A stretch of 64,000 nucleotides of DNA from assembly GCA_015231885.1 (NCBI GenBank), contig JADGAT010000001.1, positions 27,436-91,435 on the forward strand, read 5' to 3'. Every line of letters begins with the position of its first letter. Position 1 is the first letter of the stretch. Shown piece by piece: positions 1,571 through 24,138 of the stretch. The position numbers and the translations under genes are program-made. This DNA is from SAR324 cluster bacterium. GTDB lineage: Bacteria > SAR324 > NAC60-12. Below the pieces are notes generated by a model. It was not told the origin of the DNA. It did no database searches and was given only the letters and a program-made list of their open reading frames with translations.

Positions 1571-2431
1571 TTGGTTATGGAAAATATTTTTTCAAATGTA
1601 GGTTGGCAGGATATTATTGATATTTCTTTGTTAACCTTCATTTTTTATCGACTGCTTGTTTTTTTTAAGGGAACAAGAACAATACCGATATTGGCAGGAT
1701 TTACTTTGTTGCTTGCCCTGTATCTACTCTCGCAGATTTTGCAGTTAGAGGCCATTGGGTTGTTGCTGGACAATCTAGCGAATTCGTTAGTATTAGTGTT
1801 GGTCATTCTTTTTCAAGCAGAAATTCGCAATGCCTTGGCACAGTTTGGTCTGATTACTTTCTTGACAGGTAGTGGCCGTTTTAAAAAAGATGTACTGGAT
1901 GAAGCAATACAGGGATCCTTTTTAATGGCTCGTGAACGCATTGGTGCCCTCATTGTATTTGAACGAGAAGTGGGTTTACGTAATTTTATTGAAAAAGGAA
2001 CAGCAATAGATGCTGTGTTGACTAAAGAGGTATTGATCAGTATCTTTCGTCCCACCTCTCCCCTCCACGATGGGGCTGCCATTGTTGACCGCAAAGGGCG
2101 TCTTGCAGCAGCCAGATGTTTGTTACCCATTACAACGAGCACCAAAATCAGTCCTATTTTGGGGACTCGTCACCGTGCAGCCATTGGTCTTACTGAAGAA
2201 ACCGATGCCATTGTACTGATCGTTTCGGAGGAACGCAGCGAAATCAGTCTCAGTCACAAAGGCGAACTGATCCGAGGTTCTTCGCAGCAGGATATCAAAA
2301 AAGTTCTATTTGAATTGATGGATGTGAAAGCACAGGAACCACCAGTGACCTTAGATACTCCACAAACGGATGCGGTGGAGACCGAAGCCGATATCGAAGA
2401 AGATGAAAAATCAGTGGCCGTGACTGTATGA
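1571..2431 (+). CDS. cdaA: diadenylate cyclase CdaA/DacA (c-di-AMP synthase)
   Basis: N-terminal hydrophobic helices are followed by a DisA_N-like domain with DGA and RHRAA-type motifs. The gene sits immediately upstream of a YbbR-like gene. Confidence 0.8.
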   Translation: MVMENIFSNVGWQDIIDISLLTFIFYRLLVFFKGTRTIPILAGFTLLLALYLLSQILQLEAIGLLLDNLANSLVLVLVILFQAEIRNALAQFGLITFLTGSGRFKKDVLDEAIQGSFLMARERIGALIVFEREVGLRNFIEKGTAIDAVLTKEVLISIFRPTSPLHDGAAIVDRKGRLAAARCLLPITTSTKISPILGTRHRAAIGLTEETDAIVLIVSEERSEISLSHKGELIRGSSQQDIKKVLFELMDVKAQEPPVTLDTPQTDAVETEADIEEDEKSVAVTV

Positions 2432-2453
2432 TTATCTTTCCCTTTTTTTATGA

Positions 2454-3446
2454 ATGATGCTTGTGCGAAAGATAAAGAAAATTTTACCATTCACACTTAT
2501 CTCTTTTTTTCTGGCAATTTTTGTTTGGTATTTAGCCAAGCAAGGAGCACAAACAGTAGGAATGAGTTTTTTTGTTCCAATCGTGTTTAAGAACTTGCCG
2601 CCAAATATGAGAATCACTTCGGATGTTCCCGCAGGTGTTAATGTTTCTGGAAGAATAACCCGACGATACAACAATAATTTCAATCCATCCAGTCTTCAAG
2701 CAGTAGTTGATTTAAAAGAGGCGAGTGCCGGCACATTTCAATATACGTTAACCAAAGAAAATATTGCAGCACCAGAAGACGTCTCCATCACTCAAATCAA
2801 TCCTCTTCAGATAGACTTGTTCATTGAAGAAATTATAGAAAAAAGCTTGATCGTCCGCCCACGGTACCATGGACAAATCAAAAAAGAACACATTCTTCAA
2901 AAAATTGAATTATCCCCAAATATTGTTACAATCCAGGGACCAAAGACCAAACTAGAAACCGTCACATCGATTTTTACTAAAGAAATTAATTTACAGGATT
3001 TGGACCGTACTACAAACATGATCGTACAACTGGACATGCCTGATCGCAATATCCGTTTGGTCAACAATCAAGAAGTGTTTGTTGCTCATGTGGTGATTAT
3101 TGGTTTTCCTATCAGAAAACGATTTGATGATATCAGCATTCATTTGATGAATCAAACCTATGTGGCACTGATCAATCCTAAAAAATTCAATCTATATCTA
3201 GAGGGACCTGAAGAGTTACTGAATAATTTGGATTCATCACAACTCTATGGCATTATTGACATGTCACAGTATACTCCTGGCAGCCATCGGATTCATCCAC
3301 AACCGATCTTACCCAAAGGTGTTTCTTTACTCCAGCAATGGCCAAAAGTCGCCTTATGGGTCAAACCGCAAAAATTATCTGAAGAGGAAAGCTCCGGCCC
3401 TCAATTGCCTCCTCAACAACCGTCCTCTAATTCAATAGGAAATTGA
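2454..3446 (+). CDS. cdaR: YbbR-like CdaA regulatory protein CdaR
   Basis: N-terminal TM segment plus repeated YbbR-like beta-rich region. Its position after cdaA matches the conserved cdaA-cdaR operon. Confidence 0.65.
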
Positions 3447-6789: not shown

Positions 6790-8997
6790 ATGGCAAAAAT
6801 AGAAAAAATTCAAATAGCACAAGGAGTACATTGGATCACTATACCAGAGGCCAAACTCTATATATTGTGCGGATGCCCTGCTGATAGCGTTAAACTTCTG
6901 ATGAAAAGAGGATTGATTGTCTCCAAAGAAGAAAATGGGGTGGTATTTGAAACAGGCCCAAACGCAATTTTGCTGTCAGATGTCTTGGTTCAAAATGGAA
7001 ATTTTTCTAATCTTGCCGAATTTCCAGTATTACAAATGTTTTACAGGCAAGGCATGATGCTGCCGAATCATCCAAATAATACAGGAATCAAACCTTTGTT
7101 AATTGGTATGGAAGATCAGTTGAAATCACAGTTGCACTATATTTATCGTGGAAATTATGGACTGATCTCAGCAGATGAAATCATGCAAACCGGAATTTCC
7201 AGCAAGCAAGCTAAAGACATGATGCGTTTGAAGTTAAAATTTGCTTTTGGAAAAATTCATCCTACAGAAGACTTGCTGGATACATTGTTGGTCTCCGAGG
7301 ATACCGTAGAAATTCGCAATGGCGTGCATATTCGGCACATCGGTTGGAATCTTTATGAATTCATATACCAGGGAGAAAAAGTTACGGTTGATTTGAATTT
7401 ACCCCCGCATGTGTATTATGAGGCACCATACCGGTTGGAATTCCATAAAGTTCGGAGAGAATATTTTGCAGTTATTCATTCAGGAGAGGGCGATGGATGG
7501 GACACTCATCGACCCTGTATGGCGAGTGTTTTAACATTTCAAGGAAAAATCTATTTGATTGATGCCGGCCCCAATGTACTATACAGTCTGAAAGCCCTGG
7601 GAATCGGAGTTAACGAAATTGAAGGTATTTTCCACACACATGGTCACGATGATCACTTCGCCGGCTTACCCACACTGATGCGTACAGATCGTCGCCTCAA
7701 GTACTACAGCACTCCGCTGGTACGCCACTCGGTCGCCAAAAAACTCTCAGCACTGGTGTCCATCAAAGAAAGGGATTTTGCTGATTATTTTGACGTCTGT
7801 GATTTGGAGCTTTCTAAATGGAATGATATTGACGGTTTAGAAGTCTACCCTACTTTTTCTCCCCATCCCGTAGAAACCAATAATTTTATCTTTCGTACTC
7901 TGTGGAAAGGAGGGTATCGCTCTTATGGACATTATGCTGACATTTCTTCTTTCGACGTGTTAAAAGGAATGATTACCAAAAATGATTCGGAACCCGGAAT
8001 TTCTGAATCTTTTTTTACAGAAGTTAAAAAAAATTATCTGGCTACTGTGGATTTAAAGAAAATTGATATTGGGGGAGGCATGATTCACGGAGTAGCTGAA
8101 GACTTTCGTAGTGACTCATCGGCTAAAATAGTTTTATCCCACACTGCTTTTACCCTCAACGCTCAGCAAAAAGAAATCGGTTCGGAAGCATCTTTTGGCA
8201 TGCCCGATGTGTTGATCGAATCAAATCAGCAGTATGTCATGCAGTATGCCTTCAATTATCTGCATTCTTACTTTCCATCCGTACCCCGACATCAGCTTCA
8301 TATCTTACTCAATAACCACTTAGTATCATTCAATGCGGGAAGCATCTTACTCAAAAGAGGCGAAAGGATTAACGATATCTATCTCATATTGGGCGGTAAT
8401 GTTGAAATGATTCAAGCAGACGCCGGGATAGAAAGCTTACTGTCAGCAGGCTCTTTAGTCTCAGAAAGCTGTGAATTTACTGGATCACCTTCAACATGCA
8501 CCTATCGGGCGGCCAGTTTTGTGCAGGCACTGCAACTACCAAGCTCTTTATATTTCGAATTTGCTAAACAAAATAAAGTCTATACAGAACTGGCAAGACT
8601 TCAAAAAAACAGAGCTTTTTTGCAATCATCCTGGCTGTTTGGTGATGAAATATCAGATCCTGTGCAAAATCGAATTTTACAGACAATAAAATCAGAGAAA
8701 TACTCAAAAGGGCACGTATTCCCGAAAGAGTGCTACTCCAATTTTTATTTGATCAAAAAAGGTAAGTTAGAGAGTTATATTGATGATGATTTGTTTGAAA
8801 CTTTGACTAAAACAAATTTTTTTGGAGAAGAAAATATTTTATTCAAGATTCCATGTTTATTTACGGTCAAGGTTGCCAGTTCTGCAGAAGTATACCAGAT
8901 ACCTGATGAGGCGTTGCGCAATATTCCAATCGCCCGCTGGAAAATGCTCGAAACATTTCAAAAGAGAATGAGAAAATTAGGAAAACATTTTACTTGA
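6790..8997 (+). CDS. multidomain protein: unknown N-terminal domain + MBL-fold metallo-hydrolase + C-terminal cyclic-nucleotide-binding (CAP-family) domain(s)
   Basis: MBL HxHxDH motif within HTHGHDDHF. The C-terminal region carries cNMP-binding-like signatures (FFGEENILF...TVKVASSAEVYQIP, and a weaker one around CEFTGSPSTCTYRAAS). 735 aa. Confidence 0.6.
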   Translation: MAKIEKIQIAQGVHWITIPEAKLYILCGCPADSVKLLMKRGLIVSKEENGVVFETGPNAILLSDVLVQNGNFSNLAEFPVLQMFYRQGMMLPNHPNNTGIKPLLIGMEDQLKSQLHYIYRGNYGLISADEIMQTGISSKQAKDMMRLKLKFAFGKIHPTEDLLDTLLVSEDTVEIRNGVHIRHIGWNLYEFIYQGEKVTVDLNLPPHVYYEAPYRLEFHKVRREYFAVIHSGEGDGWDTHRPCMASVLTFQGKIYLIDAGPNVLYSLKALGIGVNEIEGIFHTHGHDDHFAGLPTLMRTDRRLKYYSTPLVRHSVAKKLSALVSIKERDFADYFDVCDLELSKWNDIDGLEVYPTFSPHPVETNNFIFRTLWKGGYRSYGHYADISSFDVLKGMITKNDSEPGISESFFTEVKKNYLATVDLKKIDIGGGMIHGVAEDFRSDSSAKIVLSHTAFTLNAQQKEIGSEASFGMPDVLIESNQQYVMQYAFNYLHSYFPSVPRHQLHILLNNHLVSFNAGSILLKRGERINDIYLILGGNVEMIQADAGIESLLSAGSLVSESCEFTGSPSTCTYRAASFVQALQLPSSLYFEFAKQNKVYTELARLQKNRAFLQSSWLFGDEISDPVQNRILQTIKSEKYSKGHVFPKECYSNFYLIKKGKLESYIDDDLFETLTKTNFFGEENILFKIPCLFTVKVASSAEVYQIPDEALRNIPIARWKMLETFQKRMRKLGKHFT

Positions 8998-18985: not shown

Positions 18986-19792
18986 TTATGTATCAGTTGT
19001 TTCACCCTGTTTCGTATCAGCCTTTTTTTTACGGGGCTCCACCATCCTAGAAACCAAAATACTGATTTCATACAAAACAATAAGGGGGCCCGCCATCAAG
19101 GTCTGAGTGAAAACATCCGGTGGGGTAAGGATAGCAGCAACAACAAAAATGACGATGATAGCAAATTTACGATTGCTCCGAAGCCATTGTGCATCAATGA
19201 CACCAAGCCGAGTTAGAAACAGGGAAATGATGGGCAACTCAAAAATTGCTCCAAATGCAAAAAGAATACGGATTGTCAGAGTCAAATAGTTACTCATCCG
19301 CAAGGAAGGTTCGGTGAATAGATTTTGGAAACTGAGAAAAAAATCATAGCCAAAGGGCAGTACAATAAAATAGCCAAATAATCCTCCTCCTACAAAAAGA
19401 GGATAGGAGATGAACAAAAATGGCCAAAACAGTTTCTGTTCTTGAGGATAGAGAGCGGGCTTAGCAAAAAGCCATAATTGCCCTAGAGAAATAGGAAGAG
19501 TAAAAAAAATACTGGCGTACAAACCAACCCTTAGGTAAGTAAAAAAAGGTTCTGTCAATTCATCAAAAACCAGAGGAATCTTACGAGCGTCCAAGGGGTT
19601 GCGAAGTAGGGTCAAGATCGGCTGATTGAGTTCAATCTCAATAGTCGTTGCGATCACAAAACCAACGAATATAAAAGCTCCTGCAATGAGTATACGCTTT
19701 CTCAATTCTCCCAGATGCTCTTGTAGTGGCATAGGGGGGTCGTGCGGATTCTCTTTAGAAGCATAATTTATGGTTTTTTTGGTATTCGGCAT
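18986..19792 (-). CDS. tatC: twin-arginine translocase subunit TatC
   Basis: Six-TM protein with the TatC N-terminal LxEHLxELRxR-type motif (LQEHLGELRKRIL) and conserved P/F-rich loops. Confidence 0.85.
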   Translation of the reverse strand: MPNTKKTINYASKENPHDPPMPLQEHLGELRKRILIAGAFIFVGFVIATTIEIELNQPILTLLRNPLDARKIPLVFDELTEPFFTYLRVGLYASIFFTLPISLGQLWLFAKPALYPQEQKLFWPFLFISYPLFVGGGLFGYFIVLPFGYDFFLSFQNLFTEPSLRMSNYLTLTIRILFAFGAIFELPIISLFLTRLGVIDAQWLRSNRKFAIIVIFVVAAILTPPDVFTQTLMAGPLIVLYEISILVSRMVEPRKKKADTKQGETTDT

Positions 19793-19942
19793 GGTTTCTT
19801 AGTAAGATTTTTTAAAAAGGAATTGTTTCGTTTTTTGTTGTATGTCAAATTTTATTATCATGAACTGCCAGACCCGAATGCAGTTCTGTGAAAAACGGCA
19901 CCATGGGTTGAGTTATGCCGCAATACAAAGGAGTGATCAAAA

Positions 19943-22855
19943 ATGAATATGGGTGTGCTTCATATGACAGCAAAATTCATGCTACGTGCATTCTGTTTGA
20001 TGACCATCTTATGTAGCAGTGCTGGGGTCATGTCAGTTCAAGCAGCAGATGAATATATCATTCAGCAAATTTTAAAATTAGGAAACAAAAAAGCGTATGA
20101 TGCAGTTTTTAGTCCAGACAACCGATTCATAATTACCTTATCCGGAACTCACAAGCTGGAAGTTTGGAATAGCCGAACAGGTAATCCTGTGAAAGCATTT
20201 CCCACCGGAAAACATAAAGCCATGTCGTTGATTTCCCATCCACAGGATTCGGTTTTAATCACTGGGGGTAATGATCATACCATTCATGTATGGGATGTCA
20301 ACCGTGGGAGTACAACTAATGCCATGCGTGGGCATGTGGGAGCAATCACCACATTGGCCATTAATTATGACGGAACCCTGCTGGTTTCGGGAAGTGAGGA
20401 TGGTGCTATTTTGATATGGGATCTGAAACACTTTGCTTTACAAAGTACGATCCAAAAGGCGCATCTCGGCATCGTCCACAGTGTGGACATTCATCCCAAC
20501 GGAAAATTGCTGGCGAGCGGGGGAAAAGATCGCAAAATCAGGATTTGGAACCTGCAAACCGGGAAGATGATCGTTGAGTTCAAGGAGCATGCAGGAGAAG
20601 TAACAAAGGTGGCATTCCACTCGAATGGAAGAATATTAGCTTCGGCCTCTCAAGATAAAACCATCAAATTGTGGAATTGGCAAGAAAAATTTGCAGAACA
20701 TACCCTGAGCAACCATGGCAATGTGGTAACCGGATTGAGCTTTCACGCAAATGGGACGGTTCTGATTTCCAGCAGTGAGGATGAAAGGATCATTCTCTGG
20801 GATATTGAAAAAGGGAAAATGCTTTCCGAATTGAAATCGGTGGATGGCTCCGTCGAAAGTGTTCATTTTGACAGTAGCGGGAAACGAGTTATTGCAGCTA
20901 CAGCAAAAGGATTAGCAGAAGTTTGGGAGTTGGGGCCCTCTTCGTTTCTGGCCTCATTGCAGGGACACCAACGCTTCATTACAGCCCTGGATTTCACAAA
21001 AAATGGCAAGTATTTGCTCTCTGCAGCATTGGATAAAACGATCAAAGTCTGGAGTATGGACCAGCAGCAATTAGCCGTCACGTTCCCATCCGGAAACCAC
21101 CGTGTCCAGGACCTTCGTATGAGTCAGGACAGCCGAAACTTTGCAACCGCAGGTGCCGATTCGCTAGTTGGTATATGGGATACACAATCGGGACAGAGAC
21201 TGGCTTCGTTAGAAAAACATAAAGGAAAAGTCAATAGCATTGATTATCATCCAACACAACCATTTTTAGTGTCTGCTGGATCTGATCGGCAATGGTTTCT
21301 TTGGGATTTGGAGACGAGCCAGGCAACTCAATCCAGCATGACCCATCAAGATCAAATAACCGTAGTGCGGTTCGCTCCTGATGGATCACACTTTGCTACT
21401 GGCAGTGCGGATAAATCTATCATGGTATGGAGTTATCCCCAAGGGCAGCTCGTTCACACATTGACCGGTCATCGTAAAGCAATCAGTGATCTTGCTATTA
21501 GCCCCATTTCACCGATCCTGGCTTCTGCATCTGCTGATGAGACCATTACACTATGGGATATTTCTTCAGAAGGCGGGAAAAAAATACATGATTTGAAAGG
21601 GCATGGCTTTATTGTAACGGGAGTTGCTTTTTCTAAAGACGGCAAAGTTTTGATTTCTGTGTCACGTGATAAAACCGTACGCCTCTGGGATGTGGAAACC
21701 GGAAAGCCGATTAAAATTCTTAGCGGAGAACGCCATCCTATCAGCAAAATGGCCGTACGGCCGGATGGTAAACTGATTGCAGTGGGTACTCTAGGAAATG
21801 AAATCACTTTATTAGGATATCCGCTGGACATCATTGAAGTGAGCAAAAAAAAACAGGGATTGATGACAAAAGGAAACCATGCTTCAAACCAAAATCAGAA
21901 AACTGCGCAAAGGGTTGATATTTCTGATGCTGAAGCTTATATTGTGGATCAATCTGACCTGGAGGAAACTGTCGAAGAGTATGTCGAAGAGCAGATTTAT
22001 CAGGTAACGCAAAAAGAAGACTTTGCCAAGATCCAGGAAACCCGTCAACACAGCCTGAATATTGTGTTGAATAAAGGAGAAGTCTGTGAAAACGCGAACG
22101 ACTTGGAAGAAAAAGCCATTGAGGTATTGCAGATGGCTCCAGGAGACTTATCGGCATACCATGCATTTTTAAAAGTTGCTATCACACGCCAAGATATCAA
22201 TATGATATTTTTGCTGGCAAAAATCAGTTCATACGCATCCTTTGTTCCAAGTCGTTACAACTATGCACTTCCCATTGATGTAGAAAATAACTTCCGCTCC
22301 TGGATAGAAGATATTTTTGAGCAATCTCATATACGACAACAGGATAGTTTCCTGCTTTCACTCAAAAATTGCCTGGGAAAAACAATACAAATGAGGATCC
22401 CAGACATGCTGTATTATTTGGATATTCCAGAAGAATTTATACAAAAAATAATCACCATCCCACGATTTATCGACTTGCGCGATTTTAAAGGTTTAGGAAC
22501 AGAAGAATTTAAAAACCGTTTGTTTGGACAAATTTTGAAAAAACTGGGAAGTTCCACACCATATCAGGATAATCGAAGTCCCTTGGGAAATAATTTTATT
22601 TCCCCACCCGTGCCTTCAGGGCAGCTTGTTGTGAACCTGACACAAACACAACTCTGGGGCAATCCAACGCAGGTTCGCTTCCAGCTCAGAGAAAGAAGCA
22701 ATCCGTGGCAAACGTATTATACGGCAATGGATAAACAGAAAATTCTGTTTCTCCCAACAGGTCAATATTATCTTAAAATTGATAAAAGCATTCGACGTGC
22801 TTTTGTGCTAAAAGCAAATCAGAGCACCCAAATAAAAGGACCTGATTTACAATAG
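19943..22855 (+). CDS. secreted WD40-repeat protein (about 14 blades) with a C-terminal domain of unknown function
   Basis: Signal peptide ending VQA/ADEY. Fourteen WD-type blades, each with a W[DNES] dipeptide at its C-terminal end (LEVWNS, IHVWDV, IRIWNL, IKLWNW, ... VRLWDV). An acidic linker is followed by a ~300 aa C-terminal region with no recognisable motif. An AAGGAGTG RBS precedes the ATG. Confidence 0.8.
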   Translation: MNMGVLHMTAKFMLRAFCLMTILCSSAGVMSVQAADEYIIQQILKLGNKKAYDAVFSPDNRFIITLSGTHKLEVWNSRTGNPVKAFPTGKHKAMSLISHPQDSVLITGGNDHTIHVWDVNRGSTTNAMRGHVGAITTLAINYDGTLLVSGSEDGAILIWDLKHFALQSTIQKAHLGIVHSVDIHPNGKLLASGGKDRKIRIWNLQTGKMIVEFKEHAGEVTKVAFHSNGRILASASQDKTIKLWNWQEKFAEHTLSNHGNVVTGLSFHANGTVLISSSEDERIILWDIEKGKMLSELKSVDGSVESVHFDSSGKRVIAATAKGLAEVWELGPSSFLASLQGHQRFITALDFTKNGKYLLSAALDKTIKVWSMDQQQLAVTFPSGNHRVQDLRMSQDSRNFATAGADSLVGIWDTQSGQRLASLEKHKGKVNSIDYHPTQPFLVSAGSDRQWFLWDLETSQATQSSMTHQDQITVVRFAPDGSHFATGSADKSIMVWSYPQGQLVHTLTGHRKAISDLAISPISPILASASADETITLWDISSEGGKKIHDLKGHGFIVTGVAFSKDGKVLISVSRDKTVRLWDVETGKPIKILSGERHPISKMAVRPDGKLIAVGTLGNEITLLGYPLDIIEVSKKKQGLMTKGNHASNQNQKTAQRVDISDAEAYIVDQSDLEETVEEYVEEQIYQVTQKEDFAKIQETRQHSLNIVLNKGEVCENANDLEEKAIEVLQMAPGDLSAYHAFLKVAITRQDINMIFLLAKISSYASFVPSRYNYALPIDVENNFRSWIEDIFEQSHIRQQDSFLLSLKNCLGKTIQMRIPDMLYYLDIPEEFIQKIITIPRFIDLRDFKGLGTEEFKNRLFGQILKKLGSSTPYQDNRSPLGNNFISPPVPSGQLVVNLTQTQLWGNPTQVRFQLRERSNPWQTYYTAMDKQKILFLPTGQYYLKIDKSIRRAFVLKANQSTQIKGPDLQ

Positions 22856-22886: not shown

Positions 22887-23049
22887 CTAAGGAAGGCGAA
22901 AATAATAACATGTGAAAGTTACGCAAGATTTTCATCGAGGTTCAAGGCGTTTTATCGGGCGCATAGCTTGCTATGTCACTGGTAAAGCAACGCAGAAGAT
23001 CGTTGAAAAGACAAGTAGATTTGCTAAGTTATGTTTGAGCATTCCTAAG
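22887..23049 (+). repeat. MITE-like repeat, copy 3
   Basis: Near-identical to copy 1 with an 8 bp internal variant. Followed by a second copy of the TAAGGAAGGCGAAAATAA left-end sequence, which supplies the metX-like RBS. Confidence 0.85.
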
Positions 23050-23064
23050 GAAGGCGAAAATAAA

Positions 23065-24138
23065 ATGATTGTTGAAAGTAAAAGATTACAACTTTCCCAA
23101 CCTTTCTACACAGAAAATGGGGATGTCATTGAAAAGCCTATAGTTGCTTATGAAGAATATGGTCAAAAAGAAGGCCACGTTGTATTGGCCCTTCATGGAG
23201 GGTTAAACAGTCATCATGTTGCAGGAAAGTATGCTGCTGAGGATCGAAAATCAGGAGAGTGGGATGGTTTGATTGGTCCTGGAAAAGCAATTGATACAAA
23301 CCTCTATCGTGTGATTGCTCCAAATGCTTTGGGCAGTATGTACGGAACGTCCTCGCCGTTAACCCTGAACCCTGATACAAAACAACCCTGGGGTGCGGAT
23401 TTCCCAAATATTACATTTATTGACATGGCTCATTTCCATAAAGTATTTCTGGAAGAAATAGGAGTGTCTAAAGTATTCATGAGTGCAGGCCCTTCGATGG
23501 GTGCACTACAATCCCTTCAATTGGCCGCACTCTATCCAGATTTGATGGACAGTGTCGTGGCAGTAGCATCTTCAGGAAGGATGACTCCTTCGGGAATGTG
23601 CATGCATCACTTTATCATGAATGCCATGCGCATGGACCCTGACTTCAATGAGGGCCGGTATGAAATTGGTACACCAAAATTGGGTTTGCGCTATGTTCAC
23701 CAGGTCATCATGATTTACTATACCCATGAAAGCATCGTCAGGGATTTATGCTGGGACGAAACTTCTCAAGAGAAAAGAAGTGAAAAAGCCCGAAATTTTA
23801 TAACTCCTCATTACATAGAAGAACACCTCCAAACATTAGATCCCAATTGTTTTATCCGGGTTCTCAATGCACTGAATTCTTATGATCTGGCAAAAGGAGC
23901 ATCAAGCTACGAGAAGGGTGTGCAGCGTATTCAATGTCCTGTTTTAATGATGAATGTTGACACCGATCAAGAATTTCCCCCCTACTGGGCCGAAGAAGTC
24001 GCTAATATTTTAAACCAGAAGAATCCAGGTCAAGCAGAGGCTATCACTATTCGTTCCAAGTGGGGGCATGCAGGGTGTCTAAAAGAAATGCAAACCATGG
24101 GGGAACATATCAAAGCCTTTATCAAACGGATTTCTTAA
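23065..24138 (+). CDS. metX: homoserine O-acetyltransferase family alpha/beta hydrolase (MetX-like)
   Basis: LALHGGLNSHH oxyanion region, nucleophile elbow GPSMGALQS, about 358 aa. The start at 23065 is preceded by AAGGAAGG. The longer ORF beginning at 22912 runs through repeat copy 3 and is rejected. Confidence 0.65.
   Translation: MIVESKRLQLSQPFYTENGDVIEKPIVAYEEYGQKEGHVVLALHGGLNSHHVAGKYAAEDRKSGEWDGLIGPGKAIDTNLYRVIAPNALGSMYGTSSPLTLNPDTKQPWGADFPNITFIDMAHFHKVFLEEIGVSKVFMSAGPSMGALQSLQLAALYPDLMDSVVAVASSGRMTPSGMCMHHFIMNAMRMDPDFNEGRYEIGTPKLGLRYVHQVIMIYYTHESIVRDLCWDETSQEKRSEKARNFITPHYIEEHLQTLDPNCFIRVLNALNSYDLAKGASSYEKGVQRIQCPVLMMNVDTDQEFPPYWAEEVANILNQKNPGQAEAITIRSKWGHAGCLKEMQTMGEHIKAFIKRIS

What the first reader, a model, noticed from the sequence alone, without database searches (positions are those of the whole stretch)
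19943..22855. Secreted 14-blade WD40 protein with a novel ~300 aa C-terminal domain
A signal peptide (cleavage near VQA/ADEY) precedes 14 WD-type blades, which would form two seven-bladed propellers. An acidic linker (DLEETVEEYVEEQIYQ) then leads into a C-terminal region without recognisable motifs. Large exported WD40 proteins are uncommon in bacteria. They are typical of lineages with complex envelopes or host interaction. The gene is divergently arranged from tatC, but the signal peptide lacks a twin-arginine motif, so export is presumably Sec-dependent.
Basis: seen in the sequence. Interest (0 to 1): 0.5.

Follow-up and report, generated by a model that had tools for sequence, protein, structure and literature searches.

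The report
Exported double WD40 propeller beside tatC
This gene in a SAR324 bacterium encodes a large exported protein with two seven-bladed WD40 propellers and a rare, unannotated tail; its function is unknown, but in most relatives it sits back-to-back with tatC, a protein-export gene.

Summary
ORF 19943..22855 (+) encodes 970 aa. It has a Sec-type signal peptide (VQA|ADEY, no twin arginine), 14 regular 42-aa WD40 repeats modelled as two 7-bladed propellers, a disordered ~60-aa linker containing the acidic stretch, and a ~280-aa C-terminal module with no Pfam, NCBIfam or PDB sequence match.

New findings:
- The protein belongs to a rare family. An exhaustive search of 1.84 billion proteins gave 50 cluster representatives. 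Those with names are SAR324 or unclassified 'Deltaproteobacteria' MAGs, and all keep the same architecture.
- Cysteines in the mature proteins occur almost only in covarying pairs. C715 and C810 are invariant. With signal peptides in 19 of 20 members, this argues strongly for an extracytoplasmic, disulfide-bonded protein.
- The tail is not a new fold. It models confidently as a TPR-like helical bundle, a small alpha/beta insert and a CnaB/transthyretin-like beta-sandwich. No solved structure matches it as a whole.
- tatC is the divergent neighbour at seven separately retrieved loci, plus eight near-identical metagenome loci. TatC identity is 43-91% and the outer flanks all differ. Four more distant members lack this pairing.

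The most likely reading is a periplasmic protein-interaction scaffold, possibly linked to Tat. Moderately interesting; function untested.

The parts
18986..19792 (-). tatC (268 aa), transcribed divergently from the WD40 gene
   Evidence: - Pfam TatC E 5e-63. TIGR00945 equivalog 204 bits against a cutoff of 132.7.
- It is the divergent neighbour of the family gene in L002, L003, L004, L006/L007, L011 and L012, and in 8 metagenome loci.
19793..19942 (.). 150-bp divergent intergenic region with the ribosome-binding site GGAG at 19930-19933
   Evidence: - Sequence read.
- AAAGGAGTGAT(C/A)AAAAATG is conserved in L002.
- No motif is conserved among the more distant loci.
- No promoter-like match lies inside the spacer.
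19943..20044 (+). Sec-type signal peptide, residues 1-34, with predicted cleavage at VQA|ADEY
   Evidence: - n/h/c organisation.
- It evolves fast (39% identity, dN/dS 0.76 against L002), while AQA|ADEYIIQQILKLG is kept.
- 19 of 20 family members have an equivalent signal peptide and none has RR.
- It is modelled as a lone helix, residues 7-27.
20045..20935 (+). First seven-bladed WD40 propeller (residues 35-331, repeats 1-7)
   Evidence: - Pfam WD40 and propeller models.
- Repeat units.
- 28 strands at pLDDT about 90-97.
- dN/dS 0.13.
20936..21823 (+). Second seven-bladed WD40 propeller (residues 332-627, repeats 8-14). This is the most conserved part of the family.
   Evidence: -.
- 27-60% identity to distant members, against 23-61% for propeller 1.
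- dN/dS 0.057.
21824..22015 (+). Disordered linker (residues 628-691) containing the acidic segment 661-687 (nt 21923-22003)
   Evidence: - pLDDT about 30 in both models.
- 13 D+E against 6 K+R.
- Segment 666-690 is 96% identical to L002 with dN/dS 0.008.
- A D-L ... Y/F pattern is semi-conserved in the family.
22016..22342 (+). TPR-like helical subdomain of the C-terminal module (residues 692-800), with invariant Cys715 (nt 22085-22087) and the D-x-AAYHALLK motif
   Evidence: - Helices 694-799 at pLDDT above 90.
- Invariant columns.
22343..22552 (+). Small alpha/beta insert (residues 801-870) with invariant Cys810 (nt 22370-22372) in a beta-hairpin, and the conserved IPxEF and DLRDF..L...EFKNR motifs
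   Evidence: - Secondary structure.
- Conservation.
- Cysteine pairing pattern across the family.
22553..22855 (+). C-terminal beta-sandwich (residues about 888-966, CnaB/transthyretin-like) and the stop codon
   Evidence: - Seven strands, 892-964.
- Foldseek best hits are DUF3823, CnaB2 and transthyretin, all with E above 0.01.
- Motif FQLR..(n)W.TY.T..D....L.LP.G.YYLK.
- dN/dS 0.057.

Best explanation
The gene encodes a Sec-exported, disulfide-stabilised, non-enzymatic scaffold protein of the cell envelope, most likely periplasmic, that is specific to the SAR324 lineage.

**Proposed anatomy and mode of action.**
- After cleavage at VQA|ADEY, the mature protein presents two seven-bladed WD40 propellers as protein- or peptide-binding platforms.
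- A flexible ~60-residue acidic tether carries a locally conserved short motif.
- The C-terminal module has a TPR-like helical bundle, a small alpha/beta insert and a CnaB/transthyretin-like beta-sandwich. It would dock the protein to a partner or to an envelope structure.

**Link to Tat.** The gene forms a conserved divergent pair with tatC across deeply diverged relatives. I therefore infer that it is co-regulated with, and possibly acts together with, the Tat translocase on the periplasmic side. It could, for example, act as a receptor, holdase or assembly platform for folded Tat substrates.

**What is shown.** The architecture, family-wide conservation under purifying selection, the signal-peptide features, the paired-cysteine pattern and the conserved tatC adjacency.

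**What is inferred.** The periplasmic location, the disulfide bond, the scaffold role and any link to Tat. I put the Tat link alone at roughly 0.3.
For: **Architecture.**
- WD40 at E 5e-106 and whole-propeller models up to E 3.5e-139.
- 14 repeats of 42 aa.
- Full-length model at pLDDT 86.6 with 56 strands, a disordered linker and a folded tail. The tail alone models at pLDDT 84.

**It is a real, conserved gene.**
- The ortholog in a second SAR324 MAG is 79% identical over 970 aa with overall dN/dS 0.10. The tail is at 0.06-0.10.
- An exhaustive HMMER search with the tail finds 50 representatives, 21 of them at E<1e-30. The 18 full-length ones (905-1014 aa) all carry the tail at the C-terminus after the WD40 repeats.

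**Export.**
- 19 of 20 members have an n/h/c signal peptide ending in a small residue, just before a conserved [DE]EY[IL] start of the mature protein. None has RR.
- There is no conserved lipobox.
- Mature proteins contain exactly 2 cysteines (the invariant C715/C810), or 4, or 6. The extra ones appear as covarying pairs at 277/307 and 390/403. There is one exception among 20.

**Non-enzymatic.** Invariant or near-invariant tail residues are mostly hydrophobic or aromatic, plus the two Cys. The only conserved acidic residues are D735 and E831.

**tatC pairing.**
- tatC is divergent and adjacent in the window, L002, L003, L004, L006/7, L011 and L012. It is also adjacent in all 8 metagenome loci that include upstream DNA.
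- TatC identity is 43-91% and locus GC runs from 37 to 59%.
- The genes on the outer sides differ in every lineage (same calls).
Against: - No experimental data exist, and no signal-peptide predictor could be run.
- The Cys715-Cys810 distance could not be measured, because model coordinates are not exposed.
- The Tat link rests on gene order alone.
  - Four more distant members (L005, L008, L009, L010) have no adjacent tatC.
  - The adjacent TatC proteins are of ordinary length (246-274 aa), with no tatA/tatB nearby.
  - The 8 metagenome loci are nearly identical to each other, so there are only about six independent lineages.
  - ilvD also recurs near the gene in three loci. This shows that some ancestral synteny persists without an obvious functional reason.
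- The TPR-like and beta-sandwich matches are partial (at most 132 of 280 residues) and generic.
Confidence: 0.5

Rival explanations
1. The same exported scaffold, but unrelated to Tat. On this view the tatC adjacency is inherited synteny kept by chance, or because a shared promoter region resists breakage. The protein would serve another envelope process, in the manner of TolB/CpoB, BamB/BamD or Lpo-type adaptors. Examples are outer-membrane or peptidoglycan biogenesis, or anchoring of a motility structure.
For: - The pairing is lost in four distant members. There a TrkA-type K+ channel gene (L005, L010) or ilvD/trkA/trkH (L009) lies upstream instead.
- ilvD recurs near the gene in L009, L010 and L011, so residual synteny exists.
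- TatC shows no special features.
Against: - Both outer junctions of the tatC-WD40 pair were rearranged in every one of about six lineages, while the inner junction never was.
- If breaks fell evenly on the three junctions, this would be expected roughly 2% of the time. That figure is my own rough estimate.
Confidence: 0.3
2. A surface-exposed or released adhesin or ligand-binding protein. The propellers and the CnaB/CBM-like beta-sandwich would bind external ligands such as polysaccharide, particles or other cells.
For: - The terminal beta-sandwich resembles pilin CnaB domains, DUF3823, CBM26 and a putative carbohydrate-binding protein.
- The protein has a signal peptide.
Against: - No sorting or secretion signal was found. 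TIGR04183 (T9SS CTD) gives no hit, and there is no C-terminal hydrophobic anchor and no autotransporter or repeat-in-toxin features.
- There is no secretion-system gene nearby.
- The gene is single-copy in a housekeeping neighbourhood and under strong purifying selection, unlike typical fast-evolving adhesins.
Confidence: 0.1
3. A cytoplasm-facing membrane-anchored WD40 protein. The N-terminal hydrophobic helix would be an uncleaved anchor, with the bulk of the protein in the cytoplasm, as in most bacterial WD40 proteins.
For: - Most characterised bacterial WD40 proteins are cytoplasmic (my own general knowledge, not tested here).
- The closest solved structure is a cyanobacterial tandem WD40 protein (2ymu, 29% identity).
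- Cleavage was not shown.
Against: - Positive charges precede the h-region and a small-x-small site follows it in nearly all members, which is signal-peptide topology with the N-terminus inside.
- Cysteines are almost absent from the ~930-aa mature proteins, except for covarying pairs.
- No other hydrophobic segment reaches TM-like values.
Confidence: 0.05

Closest known systems
Tandem seven-bladed WD40 proteins with solved structures: the Nostoc punctiforme 'highly repetitive propeller' (PDB 2ymu); eukaryotic Aip1 (1nr0); the WD40 region of Apaf-1; chains of the SSU-processome/90S pre-ribosome structures and Pwp2
   Same: - 14 WD40 repeats arranged as two 7-bladed propellers.
- Foldseek E 3.8e-53 and 29% identity to 2ymu over 591 columns, and E 1e-34 to 1e-42 to the eukaryotic tandem propellers.
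- Pfam WD40 is well above its gathering score.
   Different: - The matches cover only the propellers. TM-score normalised to the query is at most 0.35, so none extends over the tail.
- The repeats here are old and diverged (23% mean identity).
- Going by the entry titles, the eukaryotic matches are components of cytosolic or nuclear complexes, whereas this family is predicted to be exported.
Periplasmic beta-propeller plus TPR envelope adaptors of Gram-negative bacteria (TolB with CpoB/YbgF, BamB with BamD, LpoP, BepA)
   Same: - This is a functional analogy only. These are exported, non-enzymatic beta-propeller and TPR modules that organise envelope machines.
   Different: - There is no sequence relationship. 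No TolB/PD40, PQQ/BamB or TPR Pfam or NCBIfam model matches above threshold.
- Here the propeller and the TPR-like part are fused in one chain with 14 WD40 blades.
- The conserved neighbour is tatC, not tol-pal or bam genes.
CnaB / transthyretin-like (prealbumin-like) beta-sandwich domains (BcpA and GBS52 pilins, CnaB2, DUF3823, CarboxypepD_reg/PEGA-type domains)
   Different: - No sequence-profile match to CnaB, PEGA or CarboxypepD_reg.
- Foldseek E-values are all above 0.01.
- Residues that would form an isopeptide bond were not examined.
Tat translocase components (TatA/B/C/E)
   Same: Genomic association only. A bona fide tatC is the conserved divergent neighbour.
   Different: - The protein is not homologous to any Tat subunit.
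- It is not a Tat substrate by sequence, since it lacks a twin-arginine motif.
- I know of no accessory WD40 component of Tat. Three literature searches returned seven papers in all. By their titles and abstracts none concerns this, and none was opened.

Membership tests
WD40 repeat / beta-propeller (Pfam PF00400 and clan) | Repeated ~40-aa units that match the WD40 profile above the gathering threshold | tested here: met
   PF00400 at 343 bits against a cutoff of 27, with 11 stretches. Propeller-level models reach E 3.5e-139. There are 14 units of 42-44 aa.
WD40 repeat / beta-propeller (Pfam PF00400 and clan) | Four-stranded blades closing into seven-bladed propellers | tested here: met
   - AlphaFold2 gives 56 strands in residues 36-625 at pLDDT about 95.
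- Foldseek matches tandem 7+7 propellers, E 4e-53 to 2ymu.
- This is a prediction, not an experimental structure.
Sec-type (signal peptidase I) signal peptide | Basic n-region, hydrophobic h-region of 10-20 residues, and small residues at -3/-1 | tested here: met
   - K11/R15, a 17-residue h-region and V-Q-A|A.
- The same layout is seen in 19 of 20 homologs.
- SignalP itself could not be run.
Tat (twin-arginine) signal peptide | S/T-R-R-x-F-L-K-type twin-arginine motif in the n-region | tested here: not met
   There is no RR in the n-region of the window protein or of any of 19 homologs.
Bacterial lipoprotein (signal peptidase II) | Lipobox [LVI][ASTVI][GAS]C at the end of the h-region, with the Cys conserved | tested here: not met
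   T-I-L-C24 does not fit a lipobox. C24 is absent in the 79%-identical ortholog and in most homologs.
TPR repeat proteins | Sequence match to TPR profiles (34-aa helix-turn-helix repeats) | tested here: not met
   No TPR family appears at E<=10 for the tail, or at E<=0.1 for any of 19 tails.
TPR repeat proteins | Right-handed superhelix of antiparallel helix pairs | tested here: inconclusive
CnaB / transthyretin-like beta-sandwich | Seven-stranded prealbumin-like sandwich | tested here: inconclusive
T9SS C-terminal sorting domain (TIGR04183) | Profile match at the extreme C-terminus | tested here: not met
   There is no NCBIfam hit for the full protein or for the tail.
TolB / BamB-type periplasmic propellers | Homology to PD40/TolB or PQQ-like BamB profiles | tested here: not met
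   None of these is among the 25 best of the 64 Pfam families matched; only those 25 were displayed. The only NCBIfam propeller hit is TIGR03866, at 53.7 bits against a cutoff of 287.
Tat translocase accessory component (hypothetical) | Physical or functional dependence on TatC | not testable with these tools
   Only the conserved divergent gene pair is available.
Anti-phage defence proteins (PADLOC) | Match to a defence-system protein model beyond a generic repeat | tested here: not met
   The only hit is a WD40-region match to positions 61-299 of a 1972-position model (HEAT-ARM_XIII). The tail has no hit.

The most novel reading that the evidence does not exclude
The family is a previously unrecognised periplasmic partner of the Tat translocase in the SAR324 lineage. 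On this reading it is a double-propeller/TPR-like receptor or holdase, encoded back-to-back with tatC. It would capture, check or hand on folded Tat substrates, or organise TatC complexes, on the trans side of the membrane. To my knowledge no trans-side accessory factor of Tat has been described in any bacterium.
Probability: 0.2. Interest if true: 0.8.

Novelty: new variant of a known kind. Interest (0 to 1): 0.45.

Why it matters
- **Abundant organism, unstudied protein.** SAR324 is, to my knowledge, one of the most abundant uncultured bacterial lineages of the dark ocean, and its envelope biology is essentially unexplored.
- **A rare, defined family.** This work defines a lineage-restricted family of large exported proteins, with about 50 cluster representatives among 1.84 billion. 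It has a fixed architecture and an unannotated C-terminal module that could be registered as a new domain family.
- **Testable predictions.** These are an invariant disulfide, periplasmic localisation and co-regulation with tatC.
- **Possible Tat component.** If the tatC link is functional, it would point to a new accessory component of a well-studied export pathway.
- **If the link is not functional.** The protein remains an ordinary, though unusual, uncharacterised scaffold protein.

Tried and rejected
- **Word-indexed homolog search.** It returned nothing for the tail, alone or as a 19-sequence profile. Yet exact look-ups find ten of the family members returned by the exhaustive search in the same collection. 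I treat this as a tool limitation, not as absence.
- **First metagenome scan.** The scan with the 19-sequence alignment failed for lack of a conserved 7-10 column stretch. A 7-sequence alignment worked.
- **Full-length prediction.** It was rerun without that sequence.
- **tatA/tatB nearby.** A pattern search for TatA/TatB-like ORFs in the window and loci L001-L010 found none.
- **Shared regulatory motif.** Alignment of the tatC/WD40 spacers shows conservation only between the two closest genomes. The sigma-70 scan found no more sites than in shuffled sequence, and none inside the spacer.
- **Rejected identities.** Lipoprotein, T9SS cargo, Tat substrate, defence protein, TolB/BamB homolog and enzyme were all rejected; see the membership tests.
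- **Gene fusion or frameshift artefact.** Rejected, because the 970-aa architecture is conserved in 18 full-length homologs.
- **Recent repeat amplification.** Rejected, because the blades are only 23% identical to each other on average.
- **Literature.** Searches for SAR324+WD40, TatC+WD40+periplasmic and SAR324+twin-arginine returned seven papers in all. Judged by titles and abstracts none is relevant; none was opened.
Full report
**1. The observation**

A GGAG ribosome-binding site lies 9 nt upstream of the ATG (19930-19933) and is conserved in the closest ortholog.

Pfam recognises WD40 repeats at E 5e-106 and whole-propeller models at up to E 3.5e-139. Reading the sequence gives 14 very regular units of 42-44 residues between residues 35 and 627. 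Their mean pairwise identity is 23%, so this is an old, diverged repeat array and not a recent amplification.

A full-length AlphaFold2 model, built on a 19-sequence family alignment, has mean pLDDT 86.6. It places 56 beta-strands between residues 36 and 625, which is 14 four-stranded blades. It also shows an N-terminal helix (7-27), a disordered segment (630-691, pLDDT about 30) and a well-folded tail (692-966). Foldseek against the PDB matches the propeller part to tandem 7+7 WD40 proteins. The best is the Nostoc punctiforme protein 2ymu (29% identity, E 3.8e-53), followed by chains of the SSU-processome/90S pre-ribosome structures, Pwp2, Apaf-1 and Aip1.

The acidic stretch DLEETVEEYVEEQIYQ is at residues 672-687, inside the disordered linker.

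The region after it has no Pfam match (best E 0.077), no NCBIfam match and no PDB sequence match, either alone or as a family profile.

The divergent neighbour at 18986..19792 is a genuine TatC (TIGR00945 204 bits against a cutoff of 132.7).

**2. Source and setting**

The exact protein is encoded on contig PDZZ01000028.1 of the NCBI assembly GCA_002753255.1. The neighbouring hydrolase clusters with a protein named 'SAR324 cluster bacterium'. The closest relative of the gene lies in a MAG titled 'SAR324 cluster bacterium isolate PL24a_bin.25'.

The window is ordinary core chromosome at about 42% GC. It carries ftsH, cdaA, pdxJ, RNase G, ftsY, uvrD, plsX, trpC, tatC, a MetX-like hydrolase, a cytochrome oxidase cluster (ctaA, COX3, COX4), complex I subunits, mfd and sdhA. 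Nothing suggests a mobile element or a defence island. PADLOC gives only a generic WD40 match.

**3. A rare, conserved family**

The word-indexed homolog search returned nothing for the tail. The exhaustive HMMER search of 1.84 billion cluster representatives returned 50 proteins at E<=1e-3, of which 21 are at E<=1e-30.

I retrieved 18 full-length hits of 905-1014 aa. All have the tail at the very C-terminus, preceded by WD40 repeats and an N-terminal hydrophobic leader. One 663-aa hit (P0033) carries the signal peptide, a shorter N-terminal region that probably forms one propeller (not scanned against Pfam) and the tail. The other short hits retrieved look like fragments from contig ends.

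Identity to the window protein across the family is 23-61% in propeller 1, 27-60% in propeller 2 and 20-53% in the tail. The linker hardly aligns.

The names available for members are 'WD40 repeat domain-containing protein' or 'WD40 repeat protein', from SAR324 cluster bacterium, Deltaproteobacteria bacterium (TL4, or an unnamed MAG) or 'bacterium'. NCBI files SAR324 under Deltaproteobacteria. The clusters hold one or two sequences each. The family is therefore lineage-restricted and rare.

Against the 79%-identical ortholog in L002, dN/dS varies by region:

| Region | dN/dS |
|---|---|
| Whole protein | 0.10 |
| Propeller 1 | 0.13 |
| Propeller 2 | 0.057 |
| Helical part of the tail | 0.10 |
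| Terminal beta-sandwich | 0.057 |
| Acidic segment 666-690 | 0.008 |
| Signal peptide | 0.76 |

The tail is clearly a functional, selected part of the protein. The 'linker' contains a locally constrained motif, and across the family a D-L ... [YF] pattern recurs there.

**4. Evidence for export**

No signal-peptide predictor was available, so I used three independent lines of evidence.

- *Sequence features.* The n-region has K11 and R15. The h-region has 17 uncharged residues and is the most hydrophobic stretch of the protein. V-Q-A precedes ADEY.
- *Comparison with homologs.* In 19 of 20 members a basic n-region and an 11-25-residue h-region end in a small residue. This comes just before a conserved [DE]EY[IL][IVL] start of the mature chain. 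The leader itself is not conserved, which is the usual behaviour of signal peptides. No member has a twin arginine. The one exception, P0031, looks like a truncated gene call. There is no conserved lipobox.
- *Cysteine pattern.* The mature window protein (~936 aa) has only two cysteines, C715 and C810, and both are invariant in all 20 sequences. Members of the more distant subgroup add exactly two more at aligned positions 277 and 307. One member adds a further pair at 390 and 403. Only one sequence has a single unpaired extra Cys. Cysteines that are otherwise avoided and that come and go in pairs are the signature of disulfide-bonded, extracytoplasmic proteins.

I could not measure the C715-C810 distance, because model coordinates are not exposed. 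C715 sits in the loop between the first two helices of the tail, and C810 sits in the turn of a beta-hairpin.

**5. What the tail is**

With the family alignment, the tail alone models at mean pLDDT 84, and above 90 over residues 692-960. It has three parts:

- Six helices (694-799) forming a TPR-like bundle. It carries the strongest motif, P-x-D-x-AAYHALLK.
- A small insert (801-870) made of a beta-hairpin and short helices. It carries the motifs IPxEF and DLRDF-GL---EFKNR.
- A seven-stranded beta-sandwich (about 888-966). It carries the motif FQLR...W-TY-T--D-----L-LP-G-YYLK.

The module is therefore a new sequence family and a new combination, but it is built from common folds. The invariant and near-invariant residues are mostly aromatic or hydrophobic core positions plus the two cysteines. 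Only D735 and E831 are conserved acidic residues. I see no catalytic constellation and read the module as a binding or docking unit.

**6. Genomic context: the tatC pair**

This is the most informative new result. tatC lies immediately upstream on the opposite strand in seven separately retrieved loci, and the genes on either side of the pair differ in every lineage:

| Locus (calls) | Beyond tatC | After the WD40 gene |
|---|---|---|
| Window / L001 (11, 16) | DUF218 | MetX-like hydrolase |
| L002 (20) | contig ends about 400 bp beyond tatC | MetX-like hydrolase |
| L003 (40) | HU | unknown ORF |
| L004 (41) | HAD hydrolase | toxin-antitoxin pair |
| L006/L007 (43) | DUF2157 | ScpB |
| L011 (71) | PAP2 | IlvD |
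| L012 (72) | NAGidase | Sua5/YciO |

- The spacers between tatC and the WD40 gene are mostly about 130-190 bp. L012 is called at 40 bp, but its N-terminal extension suggests the true start lies downstream.
- The adjacent TatC proteins are 43-91% identical. The loci range from 37 to 59% GC, so these are deeply diverged genomes.
- A metagenome scan added 11 loci. All 8 that include upstream DNA have the same divergent tatC. They are nearly identical to each other, so they add little independent weight.

Four more distant members lack the pairing. In L005 and L010 a TrkA-domain K+ channel gene ends 1-8 bp before the WD40 gene. In L009, ilvD is divergent and trkA/trkH lie nearby. L008 has neither.

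No tatA/tatB-like ORF lies near any of these tatC genes. The spacers share no motif beyond the closest pair of genomes.

Conserved divergent pairs are a recognised predictor of co-regulation or functional association (general knowledge of genomic-context methods). Here both outer junctions were broken in every lineage and the inner one never was. I roughly estimate about a 2% chance of that if breaks were spread evenly over the three junctions. However, ilvD also lingers near the gene in three loci, so inertia cannot be excluded.

**7. Best explanation and rivals**

*Best explanation (confidence about 0.5).* I conclude that this is a Sec-exported, disulfide-stabilised, non-enzymatic scaffold of the cell envelope. 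It offers two WD40 platforms, has a flexible acidic tether carrying a short conserved motif, and ends in a TPR-like/beta-sandwich docking module. It works like the periplasmic propeller and TPR adaptors (TolB/CpoB, BamB/BamD, Lpo proteins) but is not a member of any of those families. The conserved pairing with tatC suggests co-regulation with, and possibly action alongside, the Tat translocase. I give that specific link about 0.3.

*Rivals.*
- The same scaffold with no Tat connection (0.3).
- A surface or released ligand-binding protein (0.1). No sorting signal or secretion system supports this.
- A cytoplasm-facing anchored protein (0.05). The leader topology and the cysteine pattern contradict this.

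**8. Novelty and score**

The WD40 part is a known kind, and tandem 7+7 propellers are well documented. Three things are new:
- The family as such is rare, lineage-restricted, uncharacterised and annotated only as 'WD40 repeat protein'.
- The C-terminal module is absent from Pfam and NCBIfam and has no whole-module structural match.
- The gene is conserved next to tatC.

I rate it a new variant of a known kind, with interest 0.45. It is a well-defined, testable family with one intriguing association, but its function is inferred from architecture and gene order only.

The most novel reading that the evidence allows is a trans-side accessory factor of the Tat pathway. I give it about 0.2 probability, and it would be highly interesting if true.

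Noticed in passing
L005:2-3633, L010:7391-11291, L009:5144-12892: In the distant subgroup of the family, the gene is preceded by a K+ channel/TrkA-domain gene instead of tatC. That gene carries Ion_trans_2 + TrkA_N + TrkA_C, lies on the same strand and ends 1-8 bp upstream. In L009, trkA and trkH lie within 2-5 kb. This is a second recurring neighbourhood, and it is unexplained.
   Followed up: partly
L009:7984-9825, L010:3571-5412, L011:8902-10737: ilvD (dihydroxy-acid dehydratase) lies next to or near the family gene in three otherwise different loci, in different relative orientations. This looks like residual ancestral synteny, and it tempers the weight of the tatC adjacency.
   Followed up: no
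family alignment; window residues 277, 307, 390, 403: Extra cysteines in the propellers of distant members appear only as covarying pairs. One pair lies at aligned positions 277/307 (six members) and another at 390/403 (one member). This suggests additional lineage-specific disulfides in blades 6-7 and 9.
   Followed up: partly
P0033 (663 aa): A shorter family member has a signal peptide and the same C-terminal module, but its N-terminal region is only long enough for about one propeller. This suggests the tail is the family-defining unit and the number of propellers can vary. Its N-terminal region was not scanned against Pfam.
   Followed up: no
L005:5499-7586: About 2 kb downstream of the family gene in L005 lies a 695-aa protein that combines weak WD40/propeller matches with a C-terminal DnaJ (J) domain. 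This is an unusual combination.
   Followed up: no
window 22912-24138: The downstream alpha/beta hydrolase is MetX-like but scores below every NCBIfam equivalog cutoff (244 bits against 331 for PRK00175). The ortholog in L002 starts at the internal MIVESK methionine, so the real start here is probably near 23065 rather than the GTG at 22912.
   Followed up: partly
window 41255-42472 (+) and 42864-43787 (-): A 406-aa ORF has no Pfam family and overlaps a 170-aa ORF on the opposite strand. A DUF6765 protein lies next to it. Both are uncharacterised.
   Followed up: no
window 6790-8997: A 735-aa protein combines a metallo-beta-lactamase-fold domain with cyclic-nucleotide-binding domains. It lies downstream of a cdaA (diadenylate cyclase)/ybbR pair at 1571-3446.
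   Followed up: no
tools (vs 29, 63): The word-indexed protein search returned no hit for the tail, even though exact look-ups find family members with up to 40% identity in the same collection. Absence in that tool should not be read as absence of homologs.
   Followed up: yes
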